Positions 8,971 through 36,406 of a DNA stretch of 64,000 nucleotides are shown here, piece after piece. Position numbers and translations under genes: made by a program. The stretch is from Alloascoidea hylecoeti (lineage: Eukaryota), in contig BCKZ01000016.1 of NCBI GenBank assembly GCA_001600815.1, positions 1-64,000 on the forward strand, given 5' to 3'. The notes beneath the pieces were generated by a model. It was not told the DNA's origin. It did no database searches and worked only from the letters and a program-made list of their open reading frames with translations. Positions within the stretch are counted from its first letter, which is position 1; the number at the start of each line of letters is the position of its first letter.

Positions 8971-10159
8971 ATGATATTCAATTGAAAACTTGAAATTGAG
9001 CTAAATTAAAAGTGGTTTAACAATTTCTAGTTAAGAAACGGGGTCTACTGTATTATTACTCCCGGATAATGGAGCAGTTTTAGTAGTGCTACCATGAAAT
9101 TAATCGCAGGCTTTATTTCCAATATCGATAGTTTAGCAGCTGTATTTGATCATGAGTCATAAAAAAACATTAAATTCAAATCTAAACGTTAATTGTTGAC
9201 ATTGAAAGGTTTAATAATATGTGTCATAAATCAATATTATTTACTTTGTTTTTAATTTTAATCCCTTCCTCCCTTTTTTTAAGGGTAATTTTGAGTATTG
9301 AGTGACTTTCAACATATTTCAAATCCTCCCAATTATAATTAAACAGATTATTATAAATAGAAATAAATTGGTATTCAATATTCAATATTCAGTTTTCATT
9401 TATTTTGTTTAAATTAATATTTAAATTAAATTTTCACTTGTATAGGCCTACATAATTTGCAATAGGGATTATTCAATGTCACTTCGATGACACTTTTTAT
9501 ATAAGCTGGCGCCTATATCATAAAAGAAAAATTTGATTAGTGAATGTAATTGTGTTTTGAAAAAAAATTGCTTGTGAATTTAATACTTTTTATCATAGTC
9601 ATTAATTTCTCTAGATCATTTCTAATTATAATATTTCTATTATAAATTATTGAATTTTTAATAATTGTAGATTACAAGGCAGATAATAATCAAATTAAAT
9701 AATTTTTATAGGCCCAAGAATCTAGATCAGCGGAGAAGAGGACCGTCAAATGATATTTTTGGCTGATAAACATTCCACCGAGAGGGAGAAAAGGCGAAAA
9801 GGCGTTTTTGTATGGGACTTGTGGAGCCAATGAAATTCGAGTGTTTGAAGGTGAAGGCTCATCACTTTAAGGATTCACCTATCTTTTGTAGCCTTAGGTT
9901 TTGGAGGTCTTTCGGAGGTTTGTCTTACATTATACAGAAGACCCTCTTGTGATTCTTGCTCCGTTGCTTCACGCAATCACGTAAGGTCTAGATCTACAAG
10001 AATTATCTATATAAAATGAGCTCTCTGCTTTCTTTTCTTTTAGATTGTGATTCCAACCATCATTCATTCTTTACTCATAGTTTTTAAAGCTACAACACTT
10101 TCGTTATCATTAACTAATATACATTCATTCGTTGCCTACCTCTTAATATAAATAACAAA

Positions 10160-10690
10160 ATGAAATTTTCAATCGTCTCCTCTATTGTCTTTGCAGCCTC
10201 TGCATTTGCCGTATCAAACGCTACAGTTGCAGCCTCAACAGTCGTTTATACAACAGTTGTTGATAAGGTTGTTACCAAATACACAACATATTGCCCATAC
10301 GCTACCCAAGTAGTTGTTAACAATAAGACTATTGCAGTTACAGAAGCCACAACTTTGACTATTACAGACTGTCCATGTACAATTGCACATACAACAGAGC
10401 TCACCACAGTTCTCTCAGGAACATCTTCTGCCCCCTCAGTAGCAGCCAATTCTACGGTAGTTGCATCCACAGGTGTTTCCAACTCTACTGCCATTGAAAC
10501 AACAGCAGTTGAGACCGCCGTTGAGTCAGCAGTCGGAAGTGAAGCAGCTGGAACCGCAGTTGAACAATCAGCATCTGCCACTGGTACAGGTGTCGCAACA
10601 GTATCAAGTGCTGAAGCTGGAGCAGCCAGATCAGGATTAACAACAGGTGCATTTGCCGGAGCCATTGCTTTACTCGCATGCCTGTTATAA
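10160..10690 (+). CDS. Ccw12-like GPI cell wall mannoprotein
   Basis: Signal peptide MKFSIVSSIVFAASAFA, motif [37 protein letters not shown] tail. TATATAAA near 10008. Confidence 0.9.
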   Translation: MKFSIVSSIVFAASAFAVSNATVAASTVVYTTVVDKVVTKYTTYCPYATQVVVNNKTIAVTEATTLTITDCPCTIAHTTELTTVLSGTSSAPSVAANSTVVASTGVSNSTAIETTAVETAVESAVGSEAAGTAVEQSASATGTGVATVSSAEAGAARSGLTTGAFAGAIALLACLL

Positions 10691-11354
10691 ACTTCAGGAT
10701 AATTACTTAATATAAGTTTATATAAACCCTGTTTTTTTGCATTTTGCATTTCGTCTGATCTTATTTTGTCAATAATGTTTAAATTTTAAAATTTGTTAAA
10801 ATATGTGCAGTTGATGTTTTCGCATTTATTTAGTATTATAATATTTAAAGATATTTTCCATAAGTGGTGTGTAACAAATTAAAATAGTTCTAATAATCTT
10901 TTCTTTCTTTCTTTCTTCTCGTTAACTGGCCGAGTAGTTTTTGTAAACTGCAAACTTATTTCTTCCTCTTCCTTCTTCCTTCTGAATTATACGTCGTGAA
11001 TATTCTTTGAAGTTCTCTTCTCGCCCCTCAACAATTGCCACCACAAGTGTGAGTGTCCGAGTGTTGACATAAAGATCCCGCCAAAATCCGTCCAGCAAAC
11101 CAGCCAATGGCAGGCCCGCACTGAGCATCGTTATCACAACCACATGCGGTCCGCGTATTTGCACTGCGGGTCTTTACCTACTCCCGACGCGAAGAGGCCG
11201 GAAAAAGCGCAGCCAAAACGCGAAAGTGACGCGTGAGCAATCACCCGATAGTGGTGGCGCAAGCCCGTCGGTCGGGTGCTGCAGAGGCCCAAAACAGAAA
11301 TTTGATTTAGTCGAAAATGAGCCTTTGAATGTCTCTTTTTTAACTTCATAAATT

Positions 11355-11362
11355 TATAAATA
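11355..11362 (+). promoter_or_regulatory. Probable TATA box of the bZIP gene, downstream of a GC-rich UAS-like block (about 11020-11290)
   Basis: TATAAATA followed by a pyrimidine tract and an A-run. Confidence 0.55.
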
Positions 11363-11560
11363 TACAAAGAAATCGGCTTTTCTTACTTTTCTTCTTAAAC
11401 ATCACACAAAAAAAAAAATAGATAGAAAAAGTCAATTCTTGCTTGTTTGCTGGCTTCGATTTTCTGGTATTTTTATCTGTAGTAAAAGCATTTATCGCTC
11501 GTACTACTTCTTATAATCTGCAGACACAGAACCTCTTGAACAGGGCCTCTAACCGCAGCC

Positions 11561-12439
11561 TTGATTTCGGAAGTTCCTCCCCTAAATATCGCCAACTTCG
11601 CCTCGTTGTCTTCACCAACTACCTTCTCCGACGCCATTTTAGGTGGTCCCAATTCCCAATGGCCCTCTTTTCCGGGTTTAACCTCCTCTCCTCAGAACGA
11701 TCACGACACATTCTCCTTTCTTAATGATGCGGATTTCGCTTCTTTGGTTCCGAATGAGGGACAGGATAGATCTGCAGATTTAGAACAACATTTAGATCCT
11801 CTTGTCCCCTTCGATTTCAACACAGTCCCTGGTTATTCGGAAGACACAGGCCCTAATCAGAACCTTTTCATTTATCTACCAGAGCATGCCCTGGTTCAAG
11901 ATCCTGCTATTAAAACTGAAGAACCGGAAGATTTACCTTATGATGAATGTTTACATGCTGCTCCAATATTGTCTTTACCTCCTGCTTCTCTCTCTCCTCC
12001 AATAAATACAAATCAAAATCCGGCTCCAACGTTAACTCCTATCCCTACTCCTGATCCAACTCAAACTCCTGTTCCAAATTCATTAAAACGTCGGGCTCCA
12101 TCATCCACTCTTGAATCATGCAAAAAAACAATTAAAAAAGAACTTTCAATCTCTGAATTATCAACAGAAACAGTTTTAAAAAGAATAAATAAGCGTCGAA
12201 AACGTAAACCAGCAACAAATGGTAATATATCTGTTGATACTGATGATCCAGTTGCTAAAAAAAGAGCAATAAATACCTTAGCTGCAAGGAAATACAGAAA
12301 ACAAAGACAGCAAGAAGTTGAAAAATTAGAAGAAAGAATACGGCAATTGGAAAATGAAAGAAGTAATTTAGATATTGAAGTTAAATGGTGGAAAATGGAA
12401 GCACAAAGATGGAAAGAACTTGCTGGTAATAATAAATAA
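11561..12439 (+). CDS. Gcn4/CpcA/JlbA/IDI-4-like bZIP transcription factor; start codon uncertain (no in-frame ATG before the bZIP, TTG 11561 is the candidate)
   Basis: DPVAKKRAINTLAARKYRKQRQQEVEKLEERIRQLENERSNL basic region and zipper at the C-terminus, acidic/aromatic N-terminal region. In-frame TGA at 11537-11539; the only in-frame ATG is 12395. Confidence 0.85.
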   Translation: MISEVPPLNIANFASLSSPTTFSDAILGGPNSQWPSFPGLTSSPQNDHDTFSFLNDADFASLVPNEGQDRSADLEQHLDPLVPFDFNTVPGYSEDTGPNQNLFIYLPEHALVQDPAIKTEEPEDLPYDECLHAAPILSLPPASLSPPINTNQNPAPTLTPIPTPDPTQTPVPNSLKRRAPSSTLESCKKTIKKELSISELSTETVLKRINKRRKRKPATNGNISVDTDDPVAKKRAINTLAARKYRKQRQQEVEKLEERIRQLENERSNLDIEVKWWKMEAQRWKELAGNNK

Positions 12440-12475
12440 ACACTTTTTTTCATATATTGGGGATTAATACACATC

Positions 12476-12563
12476 TATTACTATTATTATTATCATATTA
12501 CTTTTATTGCTACTATTATTGAATATTATTATTTTAGCTATTACTATTATTATTATTACTATT
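12476..12563 (+). repeat. Degenerate (TAT)n low-complexity tract in the bZIP 3' region
   Basis: Runs of tattattat/tactat. Confidence 0.6.
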
Positions 12564-14007
12564 GTTTAATCTGATTTAGGAGTAAAAGGAAACAAAAACA
12601 ATCAAAAAAAAATTTAAAACTACAGGAAATTTACAAAAACAAAAAAAAATTGGTGAAAACTTAAGGATACCAACAAACATTTTAAACGTCATTCAAATTT
12701 CAAATTTCGAATCATCTAAATCAATTAATTTACCTTTTTCTTCATTTCGATAGATAGCAAAGATCTTATCGATTTTATTCATGTATAAAGAAGGAATACA
12801 AAATTAAAATACAATGGTATTATTATTAATATCAATATTCTTTTTTTTTTATTCCCCATTAATCTAAAATCTAAATTTAAAAATTCAATTCTTTATTATA
12901 GACAGATTTCTTTTTCCTTTTTATTTTTATCTTTGTTTACTTAATTACCATCGGTTTTTGACTTCATTGATTTAACTGTTCATATTTGATTTACTTTTTT
13001 TTTAACTATTTATTTATTTTATATACGACCCCTTGTTCATGGCTTTCTATTTATATTTTTATACCAATGTTTTATATTTATAATGTTATTATATGTTACA
13101 ATGTTAACGTTAACTGTGAATTCTCTTTTTTTTATATTCTTTCTAGATAATAAATTTTCATTCAATTGCAATAATGTAATTAAGAAGTAATTTTATGTGT
13201 TTTATCCTTTTGCGATTCTCGAAACTGTAAGCTTAATTAAATGAATTTTTGCTCTGTAATTGTGATTATTGTAACTGAAAGGGCCGGAGATCATCCGAAT
13301 ATTGAATTTTTGGCACATGCTCGTAATTGACTTATCATTATTCAGTTGTATTCCATCATTCAATGCTCATTTCCCTGAGTTTCAAAAGTAAAAAACCCGG
13401 GCAAAGCTTGCTTAAAACGAGACTAATAGTAAATGGGAAGCACACTATTGTTTTATCTTCTTTTTCTTCCGCATTTGAGAAGGGAAAAGCCCAGATAAAA
13501 GGAAAGGGACCTTCAAATTTTAAATCTCTTTGCTGCTGCTGATAGAACTTTATTAAAACAGGAAACCTTGCCACTGTTACGTTGCAATTGATTAATATTG
13601 ATAACGTTAAACTATATTGTTCTTTTTATCATATAGTAATCCTTAGATTATTTTTACATTATAAAATAGTTTAGAAAAAGAAGTACTAAAAGGTAAAGAA
13701 GAATAGATAGTCATTACTTTAAAAGATGACACTAATATGTATTACAACTAAATTGAATGTTTATTCATGGGAAGTTTTTGATCATTCTTCAAGGCTAAAT
13801 AGTTTAAGATAAAACTCATTTATCATATTAAGATAGTATTTCATAATCCGACATGGATAAACTTACCAAGTCTATGATATTATTAGTTAGACTGCCAGGC
13901 TTAATTCAACATCTCTTCGCTAAATAGTTTAAAATAAAAATATTAGAATTCAGCAAATTAAAATAGTTTTTGACTCATTTTATCGATCAAGTATTGCATT
14001 ATTCAGC

Positions 14008-16125: not shown

Positions 16126-18927
16126 TTATTCTGCTTGTAAAACTTTCTTTAATTCTTTCAATTGTTCCAAATCTTCATCTTGATTCCAAATTCCTCTTCT
16201 AACAATTATATAATCTTTACAAGTTTCCCAAGATTTCTTTATTTCATTAACATAATCATCACTGACTTTTTTATTATTTTCAATTTCTTTTATAAAATTT
16301 TCAATTTTTAAAATTTGTTTTTCATTACTTAAATTTGAAAATACAATAATTATAACATCTTTTAAAATATCAATTTTTTTTTTATTAAAAATTAATTGAT
16401 TTAAATTAATTAATGAATGTTGATATAAATAAATAAAATTTGATGAAAACCAATTTAATAAAATTAAACTTGATTTTGATCTTGTTGTTAATCCAACAAG
16501 ACATAATTCAATATTTTCAATATCACCTTTTAAAAAATGATCTTTAAAAAAATTTAATGTTTTATTAATTAATTGTAAATCTTGTGTAAAACCTAATGAT
16601 GTTAAAGCTGCTTGATGAATTTGTTTAGAAGATTGTGATGGTGTTGATAATTTTGTTAATGATAATAATTGTTTATATTGTTTTTGTGATGAATTATAAG
16701 AAACATGACATAAAATATTTGTAATTAATGGTAATGGTATATGATTAATATTAATTAATAATGATTTAAAAAGTTTTGATATAATTTGTTTCATTGTTGT
16801 TGATGATGATGAATAAGATGAAGAAATTAATAAATTTCTTAATGTTAATTCTTTTGTTGAAATTTTAACTAATGTTTCAGTATTTGTAAAATAATCAATT
16901 GACCAATCTAAACTGTTTATTATATATTCAATTAAATTACTTTGCCATTTTAAAAATTCAGAGAAAATTGATGATTCAACAAGTGAGTTTTCAATTGTTT
17001 GACAATAAACTAAAATAACTGCCCAAACATTTATATCCTTTGTTGATTTCAATGTTGTTATAAAATTAATAAATGGAATTAATTGATTTTTTGATAATAT
17101 TGGTAATAATTTCCCATGATCATTTAAAATTCCAACTATATCTAATGTTGTAATTAAATTTTTAGAATTTAAAAAATTTGTTGAAATAATTGATAATTGT
17201 TTTTCAGGATTTAAATAAATTGTTTTATAAAAACCAACTTGATCAGGATTTAATTTTATAAAAAAATTTGAATCATTAATATTAAGTTTTAATTTTCTTT
17301 CATTAAATATTATAAATTTAATACCTTTTGTTGTTAAAATTGTTAATGGAATATCATAAATAAAATCATCTTCAGTTGAAAATTTCCCATTTGTTAATAG
17401 ATCTTGTGGATTTTGATATCTATGTTGTTCTAAATTAATAAAACCTTCTTCATCTTCAGAAACTGAAATTAATGGAAATCCTGGTCTATGAATCCAACCA
17501 GAAATTAATTTTTTAATATTTAATTTATTATTTGTAGCTATTGAAAATTCATCCCATAAATCATTTGAATCTATAGTTTTAAATTGATTTTTTGAAATTA
17601 ATGATTTTAATGCTAAATTAAATGTACTATTTGAATTTGTAAAACCATCAATAAAATTTGAAAACATTCTTAATAAACAAATTCCTTTACGATAAGAAAT
17701 TGCATCAAAAGTATCTTCAGATTTTTTAACATCTCCAATAATTTGTTTAAAAATTTGTTTTGAATTTAAATTTGAATCACTTATAAAAGCAGAATCATAA
17801 TCATCAATAAAATTTAACCATGGATTTTCAATTTCATCTTCATAATATTTTAAAACATGATATGGGAAAAATGTTGCAAATGATTCATTTAACCAAACAT
17901 CTCTCCAATTTTTAAAACCAACTGAATTACCTAACCACATATGAACCATTTCATGTGATACAATATGTTGAATACTTTTCTTAATACCAATGCCAATTGA
18001 TTCTAAATTATCATCTCTTGTCATAACAGCACCTTGTTTAATAGTAATTAACCCCCAATTTTCCATTGCACCATCATCCAAAAAAGGAACAGCCAAAAAA
18101 TCAAGTTTTGGAAGAGGATATGGATGGCCAAATGATTTTGAAACTTTTGGTAAGAAATCAGAAGCAACTGATAAAGCATATTTTAAAGAACCATTTAAAC
18201 CAATTGGTTTAAAACCATTTATTGGAATACCTAATGAATTTTCGGGCGCTTTTTCCAATTCTAAATCACCAATTGCTAAACCAAATACATTCCAAGCCAT
18301 TGCAGGAGTAGTATTAAAAGTGACCCTTTTCCAGTCATTTATGCCTTTTTCATTTGATTTGGGAAGCTGGGTCACGTGTTTGATATCCATAACACTTAAC
18401 ACCGTGAAACGGTTCCAGGTTTCGACCTCAAGGTCAACAGTGGCTCTTACGGAAGGTTCATCGACACAAGGAACAAAACATCTTGCGTGGGTGGGTTGGA
18501 AATGGGAATTGAGGACATAATTCATTTCGCTGCCATCATTTGTTTGAGAAGTATAGTTTGTTTTGTAGAGGCCAGGTGTTGGGATATTGTCTCGGCCCAC
18601 AGTAGTTAAGCGAGCGGTGAAGGTCAATTCCAACGACAAGCCTGAGACTGTTTCGGCTTCTGAAACATCCGACGAAACAGTGACGGTTTCGGCTTTTCTG
18701 TCTGTTTTAACAGCCAGCCTGTTACCATTTAGCAAAGCTGAGGAGACGATCAATTGAGAGGCATGGAGCTTAAAGGAAAACGGCTCTTCAGCTTTGGTGG
18801 TTTCGTTCCTCAGCAGAGAAATGTTCGCAGTTCCTGTGTAGGCAGACCGCGTGGGATCCACACGGATTTGGACCCTGTAGTTTGTGGGTAAATATCTGTT
18901 AGTCGCTGCCAATTCCTCCGTACACAT
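16126..18927 (-). CDS. M1-family zinc aminopeptidase (Ape2/Aap1/Tma108 family)
   Basis: FQPTHAR..VPCVDEP, GAMENWGL, HEMVH-X18-E, FDAISYRKG. Confidence 0.9.
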   Translation of the reverse strand: MCTEELAATNRYLPTNYRVQIRVDPTRSAYTGTANISLLRNETTKAEEPFSFKLHASQLIVSSALLNGNRLAVKTDRKAETVTVSSDVSEAETVSGLSLELTFTARLTTVGRDNIPTPGLYKTNYTSQTNDGSEMNYVLNSHFQPTHARCFVPCVDEPSVRATVDLEVETWNRFTVLSVMDIKHVTQLPKSNEKGINDWKRVTFNTTPAMAWNVFGLAIGDLELEKAPENSLGIPINGFKPIGLNGSLKYALSVASDFLPKVSKSFGHPYPLPKLDFLAVPFLDDGAMENWGLITIKQGAVMTRDDNLESIGIGIKKSIQHIVSHEMVHMWLGNSVGFKNWRDVWLNESFATFFPYHVLKYYEDEIENPWLNFIDDYDSAFISDSNLNSKQIFKQIIGDVKKSEDTFDAISYRKGICLLRMFSNFIDGFTNSNSTFNLALKSLISKNQFKTIDSNDLWDEFSIATNNKLNIKKLISGWIHRPGFPLISVSEDEEGFINLEQHRYQNPQDLLTNGKFSTEDDFIYDIPLTILTTKGIKFIIFNERKLKLNINDSNFFIKLNPDQVGFYKTIYLNPEKQLSIISTNFLNSKNLITTLDIVGILNDHGKLLPILSKNQLIPFINFITTLKSTKDINVWAVILVYCQTIENSLVESSIFSEFLKWQSNLIEYIINSLDWSIDYFTNTETLVKISTKELTLRNLLISSSYSSSSTTMKQIISKLFKSLLININHIPLPLITNILCHVSYNSSQKQYKQLLSLTKLSTPSQSSKQIHQAALTSLGFTQDLQLINKTLNFFKDHFLKGDIENIELCLVGLTTRSKSSLILLNWFSSNFIYLYQHSLINLNQLIFNKKKIDILKDVIIIVFSNLSNEKQILKIENFIKEIENNKKVSDDYVNEIKKSWETCKDYIIVRRGIWNQDEDLEQLKELKKVLQAE

Positions 18928-18994
18928 CTCGATATCAGAGTTATTAAGGTTTGTTTGGTGAAATGTGAAATGTGATTTTTGTACTTAAAGCCGG

Positions 18995-19071
18995 CCGGGT
19001 AACTGACGGGTAACTGACGGGTAACTCCGGGTAACGGCAGTCACGTGGGCACGTGGAAACGTGGCACGTGG
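18995..19071. promoter_or_regulatory. Cluster of four Reb1-type sites and three CACGTG E-boxes in the divergent aminopeptidase/YDJ1 promoter
   Basis: CGGGTAAC at 18996, 19007, 19018, 19028. CACGTG at 19042 (GTCACGTG, Cbf1-like), 19050, 19065. Confidence 0.75.
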
Positions 19072-19123
19072 ACGATTACTAATGGTACCTGTGCGGGTAC
19101 ATTTCAGCACGGGAGTAAACGGC

Positions 19124-19151
19124 GGAATGTTCGATGAGATTCCAAATTTCC
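19124..19151 (+). promoter_or_regulatory. Heat-shock-element-like array upstream of YDJ1
   Basis: gGAAtgTTCg followed by further TTC units, upstream of an Hsp40 gene. Confidence 0.45.
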
Positions 19152-19311
19152 GTTTTGGGACGCAGCACTTTTCAAATTTGCGTTGATAACAATAATTGTC
19201 GATTTTTTTAATGTGTATAATTTTTTAAATTTAAAACCTCTTTTTTTTCCAGTTTGAACATTTGTTTTTCACTTCTTTTCTTTTCTGCGCTTTTATTAAT
19301 ATTTCACTAAT

Positions 19312-21751: not shown

Positions 21752-24700
21752 TTATAATGTTGATGAACCTCCCAACTCATAGTAGACATGTCTACTATCG
21801 ACTGCCGCTTTTCTGACATTTCGTTTTTTATCATCTAATACAGTACCCAATTGTTTAATAACTTGATCTTTAAACGGTAGAACTGTCGTAACATCAAGTA
21901 GTTGCGCTAATTGAGTAAGACATTTCAAACTTGCTATTCGTAATTGTGGTGTTGAACTTTTTGTTATTTGTTTACTAGAAAGTTTTAATAAAATAGGAAT
22001 TAAAGATTGAATATGATCACCTGCTAATTTTAAAGCATTTTCATCTTGTAAATTTGTTCTTATTGTATCGATTGCTGCTGTTTTAATATCACTTGTTAAT
22101 GGTAAATGAAGTGTTTGTAAAAGTAATGTATAAAGTCCCGAAATTACAGGTTGTACTATTGTTGATGGGGTATAGCGTAATAAAATATTCAGCACTGTTA
22201 AAAGATTTGCTTTAATTGGTGATGATGTTTCAGATGATTTGATTGTTGATGATGATGATGATAAAGAATCAACAATAATTGGATGTAAATGATTGAATAA
22301 TCTTTGTTTATATAATTGACGAACTTTAATATTACCATCTTTATTATTTGATTTTGATTTAAATGCAGTTTTCTTAATTTCATCATCAATTTTATTATCA
22401 TTTTCAAAAACTTCATAAAGAGGTATTGGAGTAATAATTATTTCAATTGCTTTAGTTGCAGTTTTACCTAATTCTTCAGATTTCAATAATTCAGTAATAA
22501 TATTTATTAAATCATAACCAAATGGATCATTTTTAAGTATTAATGATTTTATAAACCATGCTAAAACTTCAATATATCTTTGTTTTTCAATTTTTGAAAT
22601 TGATTTATTTTCAATGTTTGATAAAATTAATGATTTGAAAGTTTTAATAATAAAATCATCTTTTATAGGTAACCATTTATTAGTTAATATTGAAATTAAT
22701 TCAAGATATCCCAACCTTTCAAAAAGTGAAAGATTATCATTATTTAAAACTTCAACAATATTTAAAATTAATTTATTTAAATCCATTCCTTTTGGTAAAT
22801 TAACATTAATTGAAACTGCTGTTAATGCTTTTGTAAAAATATGAATTGATTTTGATGGCTTATCTTTTGATGATAATGGTTTGAAAGAATCATGATCATT
22901 TTCATTCCATTTTAAAAATTGTGTTGGTTTATTATTTAAAAAAATATCAAATAAATCATTGATTAATTGTTTTTGAACAATTAAAGTTGCTTTTAAAGTA
23001 ATATTAAAAACAAGTCTAGAAACTGCATTAACTGTTGTATCATCATCTAAAATCGGTGAATTACTACTAATTACTTTTTGTAATATTGTTGGTAAAAATG
23101 ATTTAATATATTTATCTGTTGGAGTTTTATTATCATGATGAACTTCTTTAATGCAATGTTCAATTGTTGAAATTATTAATTGAACATAATGAGCACTACC
23201 ATGGTTTGAAATAACAATATCTAATTTTGCAACAAGTCGAATTATTAATTTTTCTAATAATTGGGTATTTATTGTGATATCTTCTAAAACATTTAAGATA
23301 AATTCTTTTGGTTTCTTTTGTATATCTATAACACTTTGATCTTCATTTTCATTTTCATCATCAGGTAAATTTGTAAATAATGCAGGAAATGTAATATCAA
23401 GAATTAATGAAGAATCAACATTTGCAAATTTAATTAGTGCTTCATTTGCTTTTGCAACTGTTATTTTATTTTTATCTTGCAATATAATTATATCAATAAA
23501 TTGAATAAGTAATCCTAATTCATCACGATCTAAGAAATTTGAAAGTTCAGATATTGTTATTAATGCATCAATTGCTAATACACGTAATGTTACTTCAACA
23601 TTTGATGAACCATTTAATGCTTGTGTTAAAAATAAAAATAAACTATCTTTATATTTTAATAAAGAATTTGGAGTTTTTGTAATACCTGATTTATTAAAAG
23701 TTCCATAAACAATACCAGATGATTTTAAAAAATAATTAACAACTTCAATTATAGATCTTTGTTTTGGAATTGAAATGACATCCCCTGAGTATGATTCTAT
23801 AATAAGAGGAATAGTTGAATTAATTATATATTCACAAGCTTCAGGAGATCCTTCAGAACATTTTGATAATAATGAAGCTGAATTTTTGGCTAATTTCTGT
23901 TCAGGTGTTTTAATGTTTTCATTACATTCATTAGTAATAGTTCTGAGAAATGAAATTAAACCTGGTTCCCTTAATTTGTTGGTAAAATCTTTCTCTAATT
24001 CTTCTTTTTCTATAGACTCTGTTGGTTCTGTTGGATGAATTTTATCATCCTCTTGCCTTCTTGCGTCTGAAAAAACTTTAACTATTGTCTTAAACAATTC
24101 AAGTACTAAATCTGTTACTTCATCTTCTGAACCTTGATGAATAACTTCATATTTTAAATCATCCCAGAAAGTTTTCCAATATTCTTCTAAAGTTTCAGCA
24201 CCATAATTTTCAATACAACTTTTTAAAGTTTCCAAAACATCAACCCTAACACTCAAAGAAACAGATGTAAATTTTTCTAATAATGATGGAATTGAATCTT
24301 TTGCAAAAAGTTTATTACCAGAAATACATTTCCTTAATGAATTTTTTAAATCTTTCCCAGTAATTGTATAATTATTTTTATTTGGTGGATTAAAAGAAAT
24401 TGGAAAATAACAAAATGAAATATCAAATAAATCTTCAATATAATTTTTTATATTAAAATTTTTAATAATTAAAAAATTAATATTAAATGATATAATTAAA
24501 TTTCTTGGATCTTTTTCATTTGTTGCAATTTTTATAAAAATTGATATAAATAAATTATTAATTGTTTTTAAATAATTTAATGATTTATTTAATAAATTTT
24601 GAAAAATTTGAAAAATTAAAAATCGAACTGATTGTGGATGTTGACTCATTTCAATGTTAGAATCAATAGAATTTAGTATTGGTTTGATACTTAAAGAACT

Positions 24701-25240
24701 GAAATTCTTCATTCTAATAAGAGCATTTAATCCTTCGGAGATTTCACGAACGGATGATCCATCACTATACTTTTCAGATAAAAATTCAACAAGTACCGAA
24801 ACTAAACAAAGAAAATTGTTAAAAAACAACGATAAAAATTTTATAAATCATAATATGAAATGTGCTTACTTTCTTGTTTAGAGAGATGTGATTCTGGAAG
24901 TTGAGAAATTGTATCCGAAATACAGCCAATTGCTTTATACTTGTTAATTCAATAAGCCTAAAAATTCGGTTGAAATATAATTACCTTTTGATCGCCATAT
25001 AGGATCATCGTCCTTTATCAAATATTCACCCAATATCTGAATGAAATCAAGAAGTTTTAATTTACCATGTTCAAGAGCTGGATCAAAAACATTTGGTCAG
25101 TAAATAATTACTAATAAGAGCAATATTGAATAAAGTGGAATTGAATTCTTACCATCAGATATCTCTTTTGCAACTTCAGTAGCACCCTCCTTGGAGATGT
25201 CTGTTTCTACAATATATCTCTTTACTAACAGTTTCTCCAT
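21752..25240 (-). CDS. MET18: Mms19/Met18, CIA targeting complex HEAT-repeat protein (4 exons)
   Basis: Exons 25240-25153, 25077-24985, 24932-24870, 24801-21752 joined by GT-AG introns keep frame (LKLLDFIQILGEYL...RSKAIGCIS). Motifs EKDPRNL, LFDISFCYFPISF, LDDKKRNVRKAAVDSR. Confidence 0.92.
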
Positions 25241-32112: not shown

Positions 32113-34681
32113 ATGGTAAGCAGGCTGTTGTTCATGTTCGTACTAATTTTAATATGTTATTCAAATCACTAATTTTTTGTTAAATTTTTAAAAAGAATGT
32201 TGAAGCTATTGAGGAAGTCGATAATGTTCGATTAAGTTGGAATTCTTTCCCCCTTAACAAATTAGAGGCTTCAAGAACCGTCGTTCCTATTGGTGCTCTC
32301 TATACTCCATTGAAACAACGAGATGACTTGCCTATTATTGAGGGGGATCCTATTGTTTGTAAGCCTCCATGTAGAGCAGTTTTAAATCCGTATTGGTATG
32401 TCTGGAATATTTGAAACAAAATTAAACAATGAAAATTGAAAATAATATTTTTTCTAATAATGATAATAGTTTAGTAGATACAAACAATAGAACTTGGACG
32501 TGTCCAATGTGTCTTAGCAGAAATGCTTTACCAACAGCTTATCAAGATACTCAATCCGAACTTCCTTATTCTTTACATCCAACTTGTACAACAGTTGAAT
32601 ATATCTTACCACGACCTGCTAAGTTCCCACCAATTTTTTTATTTGTTGTTGATATTTGTACTGATGATGATGATAATGAAGAAACTGGTCATCATCAAGG
32701 TGAAAATTTACAAGCATTAAAAGAAACAATTTTAGTTGGACTTTCTTTATTACCACCAGATGCATTAGTTGGTATTATTAGTTTTGGTACAATGGTTAAT
32801 GTTTATGAAGTTGGTACAAATGATTGTGTTAAAAGTTATTCATTTAGAGGTTCAAAAGAATATGATTTAAAACAAATTGAAGATATTTTAGGTTTAACGC
32901 CATCATCTTCAACAAATAATCAATTTAGACCACCACAAATTCAAAATCAAATCCCAGGAATTAATTATAATGCTTCTAAATTTTTAGCACCAGTTGATTC
33001 ATGTGAATTTCAATTAACCAATATTTTAGAAGAAATGCAACATAACTCTTGGAAAATTGATCATGATAAAAGATCATTAAGAGCAACTGGCTGCGCATTA
33101 AATATAGCAATTTCATTAATGCAAAGTGCTTATCCAAATTCAGGCGCTCGTATAATGACATTTGCTGCTGGTCCTTGTACTTTTGGTCCTGGTTTAGTAG
33201 TTGGTGATGAATTAAAAGAACCAATTCGTTCACATCATGATATTGATAAAGATCGTGCAAAACATTTTAAAAAAGCTTTAAAATATTATTCAAATTTAGC
33301 TTCGAGAGCTGCTTTAAATGGTCATGCAATTGATATTTTTGCAGGTTGTTATGATCAAGTTGGTATGCTTGAAATGGAATCTTTAGTAACTGATACAGGT
33401 GGTGTATTAGTTTTAGCAGATTCTTTTACAACCGCAATTTTTAAACAAAGTTTTCAAAGAATGTTTTCAACTGATCCACAAGATGGATTTTTATCAATGG
33501 GTTTAAATGCAACTTTAGAAGTTGTTACTTCAAAAGATGTAAAAGTTTCTGGTATGATTGGTCATGGGGTTTCATTAAATAAACAAGATTGTGGTAATGT
33601 TGCTGATACACAAACAGGTATGGGTTTTACAAGTGCTTGGAAATTGTGTAGTATTACACCAAATAGTAGTTATAGTTTATTTTTTGAAATATCTCCTTCT
33701 GGTACACCAAGTCATGCAAGCACTGATTTAGATCAACCAACTGGATTAATTCAATTTTTAACATCATATCAACATGCAAGTGGAACTATGAGACTTAAAG
33801 TTACAACAATTGCAAGAAATTTATTAACTAGTGGAGATGGTCAATTGGCACTTTCATTTGATCAAGAAGCTGCAGCAGTATTAATGACAAGAATTGCAAT
33901 TTATAAATTAAGAACAAATGATACAGGTGAAGTATTACGTTGGATTGATAGAACATTAGTTTTACTTTGTGGGAAATTTGCAGAATATCGTAAAGATGAT
34001 GCCTCATCTTTCAGATTATCACAAAATTTTAGTTTATATCCACAATTTATGTTTCATTTGAGAAGATCACAATTCTTACAAGTTTTTAATAATTCACCAG
34101 ATGAAACTGCATTTTATAGACATGTTTTTAATGAAGAAGATACAACAAATTCATTAATTATGATTCAACCTACTCTAACTGCATTTGAATTAGATCAAGT
34201 GGATCCTGAACCAGTTTTATTGGATTCAGTTTCAATTAAACCAGCAAGAATCTTGCTTCTTGATACATTTTTTCATGTTTTAATATATCATGGTTCAACA
34301 ATAGCAGAATGGAAAAGATTAGGATACCAAGATCAAGCAGATTACGTTTCATTTAAAGAGTTATTGGAAGCACCACGAGCAGAAGTAGCGGAACTTCTTG
34401 TTGATAGGTTCCCACTTCCAAGATTCATCGATACCGAGGAAGGCGGATCTCAAGCCCGTTTCTTGTTGTCTAAGTTAAATCCCAGTACAACTTATGAATC
34501 GTTTAATGGGCCGGCCAACGCAAGCAGCATGTATGGGTTCATTGGAGGCGGCAGTACAATGGGACAACAAGGGGGCAATCGTACCGGAGAAGAAGGTAGC
34601 GGAGCAATCATATTGACGGATGATGTCAGTCTACAAAAGTTCATGGAGCATTTGATTAAATTGGTGGTAGCGACGCAGTAA
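32113..34681 (+). CDS. SEC23: COPII coat subunit Sec23 family protein (3 exons)
   Basis: Exons 32113-32115 (ATG only), 32196-32395, 32470-34681. [21 protein letters not shown] zinc finger, [30 protein letters not shown]. May be a paralog rather than the main copy. Confidence 0.93.
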
Positions 34682-34840
34682 CTAATTTATAATTTCTGTA
34701 TGTACGGATCCAAAACCAGTAATAGAATAGCTTTGGCGCATTACGTAATCCAGAGATAAGCATGGCACATGCCCGACTGCATGTGCTGTTAGGCTTTCAA
34801 ATCTCAACCTTTGTACTCGTCCATCAACTCAGCAGAAAAA

Positions 34841-36406
34841 ATGGAATTTCCACTGAATCAAAGCCCCAAACAGCACAAGCCACAACAGTCACAGCTGCCT
34901 TTCGCAAATCCCGTCCACCAGGGCCCCAACGGCATCAGGAACGGGAACGGGAACGGGAGAGCCCAGAGCCCCCGGTTTGCGAGGCAGAGTCCCACGGAAC
35001 ATGGCCAAAAGCCAGGGTTGGTGCTGTCAACGTCCGTGGCTAGCGTTGGAGGCCCTCCCAGTTCGGAGCCATCTTTGTTCCAGTCTTCGATGATCTTCGA
35101 ACGAAGTGTCCAAGACCCAATGAGTTCGTCTCTGTTTTTGCCGTCTGCTCATCCAAATGGAAGCGATAGTGTGTCCGACGCTGGCTCCATCAACTCCCAA
35201 TTCTCCCGTTTTTCGCGGTACGGTACGGATTCAATTCCATCGCATCACCATCAAGAGAATTTCATTGCTCCGGCTCTGGATGCGTCCACCCAAATCTTAA
35301 CCTCCAGTAGCACAGATCTCGATGATGTCGATTTAGTCTATAATAGGAGGAAATCCAGCGTCATTGGCTTAAATATGGCTCTAGGTAGAAACCCTGCAGG
35401 CCCTAACTGTATGACTGGCTCAACCACAAATTCATTACTCAGTTCTCCAAATCCAAGTATTCGAGAGAGAAGCCCAAGTTCTTCATTCCCCTTCAATTCT
35501 CCTTCACAAAGTGCACTTGGTTTATCCAATTTTACTTTTGGTCAATCTCCAAATATTAATGGCGGTATGCAAAGAACTATTGATTTGAGACGGTCAAAAT
35601 CAAATTTGAGAGATTTTCACCCACATAATTTGACTCATGCTCATACAACTACTGGAGTAACGCATTCAAGGGATCCTTCAAATTTAACACAATTAGAATA
35701 TAATCTTTCGAAGAAATTATCTATATCACAATTACAAAATATTGATAATAATATTGAATCAGCAACATCACCTTCTAGTCCAGCTAGAACACCTGGATTA
35801 AGACCAGTACTTAGTTTTTGTTCATTTGCTGATATGTGTGATAATGAAGGAATGGGGAGTGGAATCACAACTCCAAGAGGTTTATCATTTTCAAACCCTC
35901 AGTGGAGAAGAGACTCAACCGCTTCTTCATCTCTTTTAAAATCTCAGTATTTTTCACAACCGGTATCTAGTCCCCATTCTGCTCAATCACCAAAGGTCGT
36001 TAACTCCTCAACCCTTAGAAATCAAGAGTTTGATAATAGCACTGTAAAAAATGAATCAGAATTACCTCCAGATTCACTAGTAAGATCAGCAACCAATGAA
36101 TCATTTAGTTCATCATCATTAGAAAAAGATGTCAAGTTACAATCACCAACTCAATCTTCTAAATCACTTTCTCCATCTGATTCTGGAAGAAAGATTTCAA
36201 TCCCACCACAAACACAACAGTGTATTAATCCATCTGAATCAATATCATTAACTTCATCAATTACTTCAAATTCAATGTTTAATTATTGTACAATTCCTGA
36301 ATCTAAAGATGAATTAGACTCTTTAGAAGATAATGGATTCACTGTTTCTTGTTTAGGTGATACATTACGAAGACATGAAGGAGAAATTTTTGGAACAAGA
36401 AATTAA
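34841..36406 (+). CDS. Ser/Pro-rich, largely disordered protein of unknown function
   Basis: Long ORF from ATG 34841 (AAAAAATGG). Short motif-like islands IFERSVQ, ENFIAPALDAS, LSFCSFADM; many SP/TP and RRxS sites. Confidence 0.8.
   Translation: MEFPLNQSPKQHKPQQSQLPFANPVHQGPNGIRNGNGNGRAQSPRFARQSPTEHGQKPGLVLSTSVASVGGPPSSEPSLFQSSMIFERSVQDPMSSSLFLPSAHPNGSDSVSDAGSINSQFSRFSRYGTDSIPSHHHQENFIAPALDASTQILTSSSTDLDDVDLVYNRRKSSVIGLNMALGRNPAGPNCMTGSTTNSLLSSPNPSIRERSPSSSFPFNSPSQSALGLSNFTFGQSPNINGGMQRTIDLRRSKSNLRDFHPHNLTHAHTTTGVTHSRDPSNLTQLEYNLSKKLSISQLQNIDNNIESATSPSSPARTPGLRPVLSFCSFADMCDNEGMGSGITTPRGLSFSNPQWRRDSTASSSLLKSQYFSQPVSSPHSAQSPKVVNSSTLRNQEFDNSTVKNESELPPDSLVRSATNESFSSSSLEKDVKLQSPTQSSKSLSPSDSGRKISIPPQTQQCINPSESISLTSSITSNSMFNYCTIPESKDELDSLEDNGFTVSCLGDTLRRHEGEIFGTRN

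What the first reader, a model, noticed from the sequence alone, without database searches (positions are those of the whole stretch)
11355..12439. bZIP stress regulator with no AUG start: obligatory non-AUG initiation or recoding
Seen: the frame is closed by TGA at 11537 and its only ATG (12395) lies in the last 14 codons, after the basic region and most of the zipper. About 290 codons with an intact bZIP stay open. There is no ATG in any frame from the TATA (11355) to 11658. TTG 11561 has a good context (GCAGCC TTG A), with ATT next. I found no convincing GT-AG intron joining an upstream ATG in frame. Known, from memory and to be verified: Neurospora cpc-1 uses near-cognate starts and Podospora IDI-4 was proposed to start at CUG; AARKYR fits the JlbA/IDI-4 group. 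Inference: expression depends on start-codon stringency (eIF1/eIF5), a translational control I do not know of for a budding-yeast bZIP.
Basis: partly seen in the sequence, partly recalled or inferred. Interest (0 to 1): 0.85.

Follow-up and report, generated by a model that had tools for sequence, protein, structure and literature searches.

The report
Yeast bZIP gene lacking AUG start
A yeast transcription-factor gene has a long intact reading frame with no normal ATG start, and because distant fungal relatives share this layout it is probably translated from a non-standard start codon, a way of keeping a stress regulator under tight translational control.

Summary
Frame 11540-12439 is open for 299 codons and ends in a bZIP domain. 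Its only in-frame ATG is codon 286. The first ATG of the predicted mRNA (11659) is out of frame and opens a 21-codon ORF. Two other assemblies of the species give the same frame, and 3 of 3 strain SNPs are synonymous, so it is neither an assembly error nor an obvious pseudogene. The protein belongs to a fungal bZIP clade with the basic region NTLAAR[RK]YR. In 25 of 27 informative metagenomic relatives, including a second yeast (L001), the bZIP frame also lacks a 5' ATG and the first ATG is in the same +2 frame. In 17 of these 25 an in-frame near-cognate codon lies exactly 8 nt upstream of that ATG. Published work proposes a CUG start for Podospora IDI-4 and reports that the ATG-supplying intron predicted for Aspergillus jlbA does not exist. 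Best reading (0.6): obligatory near-cognate initiation upstream of an out-of-frame decoy AUG. No RNA, ribosome or protein data exist for this organism, the start codon is not pinned down, and a weak 333-nt intron model and a +1 frameshift model remain open. It is a new, budding-yeast member of a known kind.

The parts
11355..11362 (+). TATA-like box TATAAATA. It lies in the AT-rich stretch 11300-11540 (29% GC), the presumed core promoter.
   Evidence: Read. Composition. That yeast transcription starts tens of bases downstream of the TATA box is recalled knowledge.
11332..11658 (+). ATG-free stretch in all three frames. It covers the presumed 5' leader and the first 39 codons of the open frame.
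   Evidence: 0 ATG against a shuffle mean of 2.1; 7.9% of 5000 shuffles also had none.
11537..11539 (+). In-frame TGA that closes the bZIP frame upstream.
11540..12439 (+). Open frame of 299 codons plus TAA, with a C-terminal bZIP. No in-frame ATG before codon 286.
11561..11566 (+). In-frame near-cognates TTG 11561 (G at -3) and ATT 11564 (T at -3), both candidate starts. Gene callers used TTG 11561 to start the 292-aa protein P0091.
11588..11590 (+). In-frame near-cognate ATC, the only one of the five with A at -3 and G at +4 (ctaaatATCgcc).
11606..11608 (+). In-frame near-cognate TTG. Gene callers used it to start the 277-aa protein P0002.
11636..11638 (+). In-frame near-cognate ATT (gacgccATTtta), 23 nt upstream of the first AUG. 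It is the closest counterpart of the AUA/AUU that is invariant in relatives.
11659..11724 (+). First AUG of the presumed mRNA, in frame +2 relative to the bZIP frame and in a weak context (C at -3). It opens a 21-codon ORF (MALFSGFNLLSSERSRHILLS) that ends at TAA 11722-11724 and overlaps the bZIP frame. Presumed decoy or regulatory ORF.
   Evidence: The same frame relation holds in 25 of 27 relatives.
12179..12208 (+). Basic patch KRINKRRKRK (aa 214-223). It is the counterpart of the family motif VRKRLEKRKRR and looks like a nuclear-localisation signal (inference).
12242..12409 (+). bZIP domain (aa 235-290). The basic-region signature NTLAARKYR lies at 12272-12298. The zipper ends in VKWWKMEAQRWKELA.
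12395..12397 (+). The only in-frame ATG (codon 286), inside the zipper. It is useless as a start because it would give 14 residues.

Best explanation
The gene encodes a functional GCN4-related bZIP transcription factor of about 270-292 residues. Its main reading frame is initiated at a near-cognate (non-AUG) codon in 11561-11638. A scanning ribosome that starts from a transcription start downstream of the TATA box at 11355 meets no AUG for at least 200 nt.

A minority of ribosomes would initiate at one or more in-frame near-cognates: TTG 11561, ATT 11564, ATC 11588, TTG 11606 or ATT 11636. The rest would reach the first AUG at 11659, which is out of frame, translate a 21-codon overlapping ORF and terminate. 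The bZIP frame holds no internal Met codon, so no N-terminally truncated protein can be made by leaky scanning. Output of the factor would therefore be set by the stringency of start-codon selection.

Shown: the anatomy, the maintenance of the frame, and the same anatomy in relatives. Inferred: that the frame is translated, which codon is used, and that use is regulated.
For: 1. The frame is maintained. 0 stops in 205 codons upstream of the conserved part, against a shuffle mean of 7.7 and 0 of 3000 shuffles with none. 3 of 3 SNPs in run X4 (12022, 12158, 12298) are synonymous in this frame.

2. It is not an assembly artefact. Proteins called on two other assemblies (P0091, 292 aa, from TTG 11561; P0002, 277 aa, from TTG 11606) are identical to the window apart from one Gly-to-Ser change, and both were given non-ATG starts by a gene caller.

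3. In-frame ATGs are absent while 14 out-of-frame ATGs lie within the ORF.

4. Relatives share the layout. Of 72 metagenomic loci, 27 have at least 150 open codons before the basic region and a 5' end inside the contig. In 25 of these 27 the first ATG after the start of the frame is in frame +2. It opens an ORF of 19-38 codons in 22 of the 25. An in-frame ATA, ATT, ATC, CTG or TTG lies exactly 8 nt upstream of it in 17 of the 25.

5. A second yeast locus, L001 (46% identity over the C-terminal 87 residues), has 177 open codons without an in-frame ATG. Its first ATG (311) is in frame +2 and opens a 28-codon ORF.

6. In an alignment of 7 filamentous-fungal members, the only invariant column in the N-terminal ~190 residues is the Ile encoded by that ATA/ATT. 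The first in-frame Met is not positionally conserved.

7. Literature. IDI-4 is proposed to initiate at CUG, conserved in N. crassa (PMC5487733, passages). RNA-seq shows that the predicted first intron of A. nidulans jlbA is absent, leaving only Met175 just before the bZIP (PMC8396895, passages). A. fumigatus jlbA/IDI-4 mRNA shifts to polysomes under ER stress (PMC3943501, passages).

8. NCBI models of filamentous-fungal relatives cover only about 64-65% of the open frame, starting at the first Met, and 7 of those listed are named 'partial'.
Against: - There is no transcript, ribosome-profiling or protein evidence for this organism. No RNA run holds the stretch.
- The N-terminal ~200 residues of the window protein have no statistically supported similarity to any relative. 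The argument by architecture therefore rests on homology of the C-terminal ~90 residues only.
- The near-cognate 8 nt upstream of the AUG and the upstream hairpin, both typical of filamentous-fungal members, are absent from the window. The codon at -8 is AAT, and no hairpin motif or significant fold was found.
- The first 61 codons are open at a rate expected by chance (28% of shuffles), and frame +2 is open there too. Within the window alone a frameshift from AUG 11659 cannot be excluded.
- At least two yeast family members (P0028, P0037) share an 'MPT' N-terminus and so probably use a normal AUG. Three NCBI-annotated yeast members begin with Met.
- A paralogous bZIP exists elsewhere in the genome, so this copy could be dispensable.
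Confidence: 0.6

Rival explanations
1. An unrecognised intron joins an upstream ATG exon to the bZIP frame. The only halfway plausible model uses ATG 11144, donor GTGACG at 11226, branch-like CTCTAAC and acceptor CAG ending at 11558. That is a 333-nt intron and gives MRSAYLHCGSLPTPDAKRPEKAQPKRE joined to TLISEVPP....
For: - I enumerated all combinations of ATG, GT and AG that keep the frame open. There were 35 in all, and this is the only one with a branch-like motif, a moderate length and an exon in the GC-rich island.
- The GC profile (GC-rich 11000-11300, AT-rich 11300-11540, GC-rich 11540-11900) resembles exon-intron-exon.
- The species does splice. The neighbouring MMS19-like gene has three introns.
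Against: - The donor GTGACG lacks the A at +3 and the G at +5 seen in the three verified introns (GTAAGA, GTAATT, GTAAGC). Those introns are 75, 52 and 68 nt long, not 333.
- The branch A would lie only 6 nt from the acceptor AG.
- The intron would contain the TATA box.
- GC-rich islands extend upstream of ATGs at other genes of the window without any intron.
- Relatives, including a second yeast, lack a 5' ATG as well. For jlbA, the intron that had been predicted to supply an ATG was shown to be absent.
Confidence: 0.12
2. Translation starts at AUG 11659 in frame +2 and reaches the bZIP frame by a programmed +1 ribosomal frameshift, at or before the stop of the short ORF (CUU UCU UAA U, 11716-11725).
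For: - AUG 11659 is the first AUG, and it is exactly +1 short of the bZIP frame.
- Both frames are open over 11540-11722.
- Shifting at a stop codon is known from antizyme genes (recalled).
- In L001 the short ORF ends UUU UAA C, on which a +1 slip of tRNA-Phe could re-pair (my reading).
- The +2 frame of the first AUG is conserved in 25 of 27 relatives.
Against: - No shared shift motif exists at the ends of the short ORFs in the relatives or the window. The endings are heterogeneous, with TAA, TAG and TGA after unrelated codons.
- None matches the yeast +1 sites I recall (CUU AGG C, GCG UGA C).
- In all 25 relatives frame 0 stays open through the whole overlap and opens only 14-62 nt upstream of the AUG in most. 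That is unnecessary if frame 0 were entered at the end of the short ORF.
- In L001 the frame-0 residues LWPDLTDRLDY, which lie inside the overlap, are conserved in the 61%-identical protein P0026.
- The frame-0 peptide of 11560-11722 is rich in Ser, Pro and Thr like the rest of the protein, whereas the +2 peptide is not (soft evidence).
Confidence: 0.08
3. The locus is not expressed as protein. It would be a decaying duplicate that lost its ATG recently, with the function carried by the paralog elsewhere in the genome.
For: - There is no ATG.
- Contigs of three runs show a second locus that matches 12244-12267 and 12381-12417 with a diverged middle of the same length.
- The N-terminal region has no detectable homologs.
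- Some yeast relatives appear to have normal Met starts.
Against: - A 299-codon frame without a stop in a 31% GC genome (0 of 3000 shuffles).
- All conserved basic-region and zipper residues of the family are intact.
- 3 of 3 SNPs are synonymous.
- In-frame ATGs are depleted while out-of-frame ATGs are common, which decay does not predict.
- The same state is found in a distant yeast and in filamentous fungi.
Confidence: 0.1
4. A sequencing or assembly error removed an ATG or shifted the frame.
For: None beyond the oddity itself.
Against: Two further assemblies give the same protein from at least 11561 onward, with one substitution and no indel. Run X4 covers 11832-12530 with only 3 substitutions.
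Confidence: 0.02

Closest known systems
Podospora anserina IDI-4 and Aspergillus JlbA (jlbA, AN1812; AFUA_5G01650), starvation- and stress-induced bZIP factors of filamentous ascomycetes
   Same: - A C-terminal GCN4-like bZIP.
- IDI-4 translation is proposed to start at a CUG that is conserved in N. crassa (PMC5487733, passages).
- For jlbA, no intron supplies an ATG and the only Met lies just before the bZIP (PMC8396895, passages).
- Translational induction under ER stress has been reported (PMC3943501, passages).
- The metagenomic filamentous-fungal loci with the basic region NTLAAR[RK]YR show the ATG-less frame with a +2 first AUG, as the window does.
   Different: - The window protein belongs to a separate yeast subgroup, with zipper KWWKMEAQRWKE and basic patch KR..KR.KR.
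- Only about 35-47% identity, over the bZIP alone.
- No upstream hairpin and no near-cognate at -8.
- No named IDI-4 or JlbA sequence could be retrieved for direct comparison.
- The original IDI-4 paper (Dementhon 2004) was not seen. It is known here only through its citation.
Neurospora crassa cpc-1 (GCN4 homolog) N-terminal extensions from conserved near-cognate codons
   Same: A related bZIP family, with a conserved open frame upstream that lacks AUGs and is initiated at CUG, AUU or ACG (PMC5487733, passages).
   Different: - cpc-1 keeps a canonical main AUG and AUG-initiated uORFs, so its non-AUG products are additional isoforms.
- Here no usable AUG exists at all.
- The same paper states that Saccharomycotina cpc-1/GCN4 homologs lack such extensions.
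Saccharomyces cerevisiae GCN4 and mammalian ATF4 (delayed re-initiation through uORFs; recalled)
   Same: A stress-related bZIP with translational control in the leader. The out-of-frame ORF overlapping the main frame recalls ATF4 uORF2.
   Different: - There is no AUG-initiated uORF upstream of the main frame in the window.
- The main ORF itself lacks an AUG.
- The basic region has Tyr (AARKYR) where GCN4/CPC1-type hits have Ser (AAR[RK]SR).
Genes expressed only from non-AUG codons, such as mammalian EIF4G2/DAP5 (GUG) and S. cerevisiae HFA1, or with non-AUG isoforms, such as GRS1 and ALA1 (all recalled, not checked here)
   Same: Dependence of a main product on near-cognate initiation.
   Different: These are unrelated proteins, and none of the yeast examples I recall is a transcription factor. 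The top 15 of 51 papers listed for 'non-AUG', 'bZIP' and 'yeast' included none on a budding-yeast bZIP whose main ORF starts at a non-AUG codon.

Membership tests
bZIP transcription factors (Pfam PF00170 / PF07716) | Basic region followed by a leucine zipper, detected above the curated cut-off | tested here: met
   bZIP_2 scored 30.3 bits (cut-off 22.3) and bZIP_1 scored 28.9 bits (cut-off 27.6), over aa 235-290.
Fungal 'AARxYR' GCN4-related clade (includes the presumed JlbA/IDI-4 groups) | Basic-region signature NT[LI]AAR[RK]YR, with Tyr where GCN4/CPC1 have Ser | tested here: met
   The window has NTLAARKYR at aa 245-253. Among P0001-P0094, 53 have Tyr, 31 Ser, 7 Phe and 3 Cys at this position, and all of the top 30 hits have Tyr.
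Fungal 'AARxYR' GCN4-related clade (includes the presumed JlbA/IDI-4 groups) | The bZIP lies at the extreme C-terminus of a frame with no 5' in-frame ATG, and the first ATG is in frame +2 and opens a short overlapping ORF | tested here: met
   Window: first ATG at 11659, frame +2, 21 codons. The same holds in 25 of 27 informative loci. I propose this feature here from the data; it is not a published definition.
Fungal 'AARxYR' GCN4-related clade (includes the presumed JlbA/IDI-4 groups) | An in-frame near-cognate exactly 8 nt upstream of the first AUG, and a hairpin CGGGTC-N-GGCCCG about 17 nt upstream of it | tested here: not met
   The codon at -8 in the window is AAT. The hairpin motif is present in 20 of 72 loci but not in the window, and no significant fold was found there. 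These features mark filamentous-fungal subgroups only.
JlbA / IDI-4 proper (named orthologs) | Orthology to P. anserina IDI-4 or A. nidulans AN1812 | not testable with these tools
   No protein carrying either name came back in two searches with filamentous-fungal queries. The only link is that a published A. fumigatus jlbA primer translates to LKMRVSKL, which matches LK[IV]RVAKL in 4 of 72 loci with at most 2 substitutions.
Yeast 'WWKME' bZIP subgroup (Priceomyces carsonii XP_062808285.1, Lipomyces kononenkoae KAK9235604.1, Dipodascopsis uninucleata KAK9454034.1) | Zipper end [KR]WW[KQ]ME[AS].RW[KQ]E and a basic patch VRKR.EKRKRR about 20-30 residues before the basic region | tested here: met
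   The window has VKWWKMEAQRWKELA and LKRINKRRKRK. W284, E287 and W291 are invariant in 21 sequences. The best non-self hits scored 55-72 bits.
GCN4 / CPC1 general-control activators | Basic region NT[EL]AAR[RK]SR and AUG-initiated uORFs in a long leader | tested here: not met
   The window has Tyr instead of Ser. No ATG occurs in any frame between 11332 and 11658. GCN4/CPC1-type hits scored lower: P0024 51.8 bits and P0083 35.2 bits.
Programmed +1 frameshift genes (Ty1, ABP140, EST3, OAZ1; sites recalled) | A conserved shift heptamer at the end of the upstream frame | tested here: not met
   The short ORF ends CUU UCU UAA U. The endings in relatives are heterogeneous.

The most novel reading that the evidence does not exclude
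An ancient fungal clade of GCN4-related bZIP factors, spanning filamentous ascomycetes and budding yeasts, is expressed through a conserved two-start switch. A weak in-frame near-cognate codon gives the factor, and it is followed within a few to a few tens of nucleotides by the mRNA's first AUG in the +2 frame. That AUG diverts most ribosomes into a decoy ORF of about 20-38 codons. The window gene would be the budding-yeast form, purged of all internal Met codons and wholly dependent on non-AUG initiation, so that the level of the factor reads out start-codon stringency or eIF2 status.
Probability: 0.45. Interest if true: 0.8.

Novelty: new member of a known kind. Interest (0 to 1): 0.62.

Why it matters
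If the reading is right, this is a budding-yeast transcription factor whose only route to expression is near-cognate initiation. It would be a natural reporter of start-codon stringency in a yeast, and a case that automatic annotation will miss or truncate.

The comparative result reaches further. The ATG-less frame together with an out-of-frame first AUG recurs across several paralogous groups of filamentous-fungal bZIPs. Database models of these genes start at an internal Met or are flagged partial. Many current gene models of this clade, probably including jlbA-type genes, would then be too short. A single conserved translational device could also explain the reported translational induction of jlbA/IDI-4 under stress.

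It makes the 2004 CUG proposal for IDI-4 testable on a family-wide basis.

Tried and rejected
- **Whole genome.** None is held for this window.
- **Earlier scan notes.** None exist for this genome.
- **RNA evidence.** No RNA holder is listed.
- **Laying reads.** I laid four runs.
  - The metatranscriptome run X8 laid nothing.
  - The DNA runs covered only parts of the stretch.
  - X4 covered 11832-12530.
  - Nothing covered 11440-11830.
- **Rfam on 9000-14000 at E up to 0.1.** No match, so the GC-rich island 11000-11300 is not a known RNA family.
- **tRNA scan of the window.** None found, so no clue to the genetic code. Only one in-frame CTG codon exists (11891), so a CUG reassignment would change one residue.
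- **Word-indexed protein search with the whole ORF.** It found only the same gene.
- **Protein Atlas.** Only generic bZIP clusters.
- **Searches for a named JlbA/IDI-4 protein.** Queries L019 and L008 returned none.
- **BLASTP of the window protein against P0015 and the L001 ORF.** Only the C-terminal 55-87 residues align. I saw by eye some N-terminal resemblances, such as W-P and F.F..D.D motifs, but they have no statistical support and I dropped them.
- **Hairpin motif of relatives.** Not present in the window on either strand.
- **Folds of 11400-11700 and sub-stretches.** No better than shuffles, with z-scores of -0.18 to +0.10.
- **Poly(A) tails at the ends of 19 short metagenome contigs.** None found, so I cannot say which contigs are transcripts.
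- **Second bZIP copy in the window.** tblastn found none.
Full report
**The observation**

- An in-frame TGA lies at 11537.
- The frame is then open from 11540 to the TAA at 12437-12439, 299 codons.
- Its only in-frame ATG is at 12395 (codon 286).
- TATAAATA lies at 11355-11362.
- No ATG occurs in any frame from 11332 to 11658.
- Five in-frame near-cognates lie upstream of 11659: TTG 11561, ATT 11564, ATC 11588, TTG 11606 and ATT 11636.

The first ATG of the presumed mRNA (11659, context ttcccaATGgc) is in frame +2 relative to the bZIP frame. It opens a 21-codon ORF that ends at TAA 11722-11724.

Pfam places bZIP_2 and bZIP_1 at aa 235-290, both above their curated cut-offs.

**Real gene or accident?**

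- The 205 codons upstream of the part with detectable homologs (11540-12154) have no stop. The other two frames have 10 and 12 stops, dinucleotide shuffles average 7.7, and 0 of 3000 shuffles had none.
- Within 11540-12394 there are 14 ATGs, and none is in frame.
- With the Met frequency of 12 long ORFs of the window (127 of 8091 residues), the chance of 285 Met-free residues is 0.011.
- Run X4, from a different sample of the same organism label, covers 11832-12530 with three substitutions. All three are synonymous in the bZIP frame.
- Two proteins in the public collections, P0091 (292 aa, NCBI-derived contig) and P0002 (277 aa, Logan contig), are identical to the window apart from one Gly-to-Ser change. 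They begin at the positions of TTG 11561 and TTG 11606, where a bacterial-style gene caller wrote M.

So other assemblies carry the same frame without an ATG, and an assembly error is very unlikely.

There are limits. The 330-nt ATG-free gap is only mildly unusual (7.9% of shuffles). The openness of the first 61 codons is not significant by itself (28% of shuffles). Frame +2 is open over 11422-11724 as well.

**What the protein is**

An exhaustive HMMER search found 89 proteins at E up to 0.001. Apart from the same gene, the best 30 or so are small yeast proteins of 60-253 aa. They share the basic patch VRKRLEKRKRR, the basic region NTLAAR[RK]YRQRRQ and the zipper end KWWKMEAQRWKE. Three carry names: Priceomyces carsonii, Dipodascopsis uninucleata and Lipomyces kononenkoae, all budding yeasts in the wide sense.

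Similarity is confined to the C-terminal ~90 residues. BLASTP against P0015 and against the L001 ORF aligns only residues 241-295 and 209-295.

The Tyr in AARKYR separates this clade from GCN4/CPC1-type hits, which have Ser. Among P0001-P0094 the counts are 53 Tyr, 31 Ser, 7 Phe and 3 Cys.

**Relatives at the DNA level**

A scan of JGI metagenome contigs with the family alignment returned 72 loci. For each I took the stop-to-stop frame that contains the basic-region motif.

Twenty-seven loci have at least 150 open codons before the motif and a 5' end inside the contig. Several are near-duplicates (L007/L010, L019/L021, L041/L043, L005/L016, L020/L022, L002/L015), so roughly 15 lineages are distinct. 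The other 45 loci were left out of this count because they have short last exons, presumably split by introns, or run off the contig.

Among these 27:
- In 25 the first ATG after the beginning of the frame is in frame +2. The exceptions are L011 and L050.
- That ATG opens an ORF of 19-38 codons in 22 of the 25.
- An in-frame ATA, ATT, ATC, CTG or TTG lies exactly 8 nt upstream of it in 17 of the 25.
- The first in-frame ATG lies 47-335 codons into the frame.

The first in-frame Met is not positionally conserved. In L047 the residues homologous to the region after the first Met of L019 lie before its own first Met. In that 7-sequence alignment the only invariant column in the N-terminal ~190 residues is the Ile encoded by the ATA/ATT.

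Twenty of the 72 loci also carry a hairpin CGGGTC-N-GGCCCG, usually 17 nt upstream of the ATG.

Database models of these filamentous-fungal genes (Leotiomycetes and Dothideomycetes by their names) cover about 64-65% of the frame, that is from the first Met. Seven of those listed are named 'partial' even though they sit on large contigs.

**A second yeast**

L001 is the best metagenomic match, at 46% identity over 87 residues. It has the yeast-type zipper (MWWKMESTRWKEE) and repeats the pattern:
- a TATA-like box at 166-173;
- a frame open from 291 with no in-frame ATG for 177 codons;
- a first ATG at 311 in frame +2, in a weak context, opening a 28-codon ORF.

The protein P0026 is 61% identical to L001. 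It conserves LWPDLT[DE]R[LV]DY, which in L001 lies inside the overlap with the short ORF. Frame 0 is therefore the conserved frame there.

Against universality, P0028 and P0037 share an N-terminal 'MPT' and so probably have ordinary AUG starts. The three NCBI-annotated yeast proteins begin with Met. I could not see their DNA.

**Literature**

- Ivanov et al. 2017 (PMC5487733; passages read) show conserved near-cognate-initiated extensions of N. crassa CPC1. They say these extensions are absent from Saccharomycotina GCN4 homologs. [quoted passage not shown] 2004, which I did not see.
- Etxebeste 2021 (PMC8396895; passages) reports that the predicted first intron of A. nidulans jlbA/AN1812 is absent in RNA-seq. 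This leaves a long '5' UTR' and Met175 just before the bZIP, which is what an ATG-less frame looks like to an annotator.
- Krishnan et al. 2014 (PMC3943501; passages) list A. fumigatus jlbA/IDI-4 among mRNAs with increased polysome association under ER stress.
- One of their jlbA primers translates to LKMRVSKL, close to LK[IV]RVAKL in four of the loci. This is the only direct link between the name and the loci, and it is weak.
- Three full-text searches (listings only, apart from the papers above) showed no paper on a budding-yeast bZIP whose main ORF starts at a non-AUG codon. None described the out-of-frame first AUG either.

**Alternatives within the window**

*Splicing.* The species has short introns. 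The neighbouring MMS19-like gene needs three introns, of 75, 52 and 68 nt, with donors GTAAGA, GTAATT and GTAAGC. Removing them gives one continuous 1097-codon frame.

An exhaustive enumeration of ATG, GT and AG combinations that keep the bZIP frame open gave 35 models. Only one is halfway plausible: ATG 11144, donor GTGACG at 11226, and CTCTAAC-CGCAG ending at 11558. It has a poor donor, is 333 nt long, and would contain the TATA box.

The GC profile (55% at 11000-11300, 29% at 11300-11540, 48% at 11540-11900) superficially fits exon-intron-exon. However, GC-rich islands with a 5'-to-3' GC3 gradient mark promoters and 5' ends of several other genes in the window.

*Frameshift.* AUG 11659 is one base short of the bZIP frame and both frames are open up to 11722, so a +1 shift cannot be excluded from the window alone. 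Against it:
- there is no conserved shift motif;
- frame 0 is open through the overlap in all 25 relatives;
- frame 0 is conserved inside the overlap between L001 and P0026.

*Pseudogene.* The points listed under 'Real gene or accident?' argue against this. A paralog-like contig does exist elsewhere in the genome and is not in the window.

**Mechanism proposed**

Shown:
- an AUG-free leader;
- five in-frame near-cognates;
- a first AUG out of frame with a short overlapping ORF;
- a Met-free main frame;
- the same layout in distant relatives.

Inferred: scanning ribosomes initiate inefficiently at one or more near-cognates. Most continue to AUG 11659 and are discarded through the 21-codon ORF. 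With no in-frame AUG downstream, no truncated DNA-binding fragment is made. Conditions that relax start-codon selection would then raise the factor.

Which codon is used is open.
- ATT 11636 is the nearest analogue of the conserved AUA/AUU of relatives.
- ATC 11588 has the best context, with A at -3 and G at +4.
- TTG 11561 is the first in the frame.

**Verdict**

The non-AUG reading is the best supported (0.6) but rests on comparative anatomy, not on expression data. Filing: a new, budding-yeast member of a known kind, the IDI-4/JlbA-like bZIPs proposed to start at non-AUG codons. The family-wide two-start architecture is the more novel by-product.

Noticed in passing
L007-L047 and others (for example L019:183-225, L008:13-50, L018:2296-2335): A conserved 7-bp hairpin ACGGGUC-N5-GGCCCGU lies about 17 nt upstream of the first (out-of-frame) AUG in 20 of 72 bZIP loci from filamentous fungi. 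The sequence itself is conserved and also reads as CGG-N11-CCG. The yeast locus L001 has a different 8-bp hairpin in the same place (L001:262-284).
   Followed up: partly
L019:~115-175, L034:~2240-2305, L047:~365-425: By eye, a short 5'-UTR intron (GT...CTAAC/CTGAC...AG) ends just upstream of the hairpin, with conserved exon ends CCAAAG | GACA(T)CCAACGGGTC. It supplies no ATG.
   Followed up: no
window 18401-19200, 34401-35600, 54801-56000, 10400-12000: GC-rich islands (45-58% GC in a 31% GC window) sit on promoters and the first ~500 nt of several genes. GC3 falls from about 0.6-0.77 to about 0.1-0.2 along the gene. Other genes (14616, 19312) lack the gradient.
   Followed up: partly
window 11000-11300: A 55% GC island lies upstream of the bZIP promoter. 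It contains CCAAT, ACGCGT and a stem CACCCGA...TCGGGTG (11243-11283; -26.8 kcal/mol, z -1.6). There is no Rfam match and no ORF with an ATG of note. Probably an upstream regulatory region.
   Followed up: partly
window 21752-25240, minus strand: The MMS19-like gene needs three short 5' introns (25152-25078, 24984-24933, 24869-24802; donors GTAAGA, GTAATT, GTAAGC). The ATG-to-stop ORF listing misses its first 111 codons.
   Followed up: yes
elsewhere in the genome (contigs of runs X1, X3, X4 laid on window 12244-12267 and 12381-12417): A second locus matches the two flanks of the bZIP core nearly exactly, with a diverged middle of the same length (113 nt). This looks like a paralogous bZIP gene, perhaps with gene conversion at the flanks. 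Its start codon is unknown.
   Followed up: partly
window 10160-10690, plus strand: The upstream neighbour is a 176-aa Ser/Thr/Ala/Val-rich protein with a hydrophobic N- and C-terminus and no Pfam match. It looks like a secreted or GPI-anchored wall protein.
   Followed up: no
proteins P0095-P0111, P0121, P0153, P0157, P0198, P0199, P0206, P0211: Database models of the filamentous-fungal relatives start at the first internal Met, covering about 64-65% of the open frame, or are labelled 'partial'. This suggests systematic mis-annotation of the clade.
   Followed up: partly
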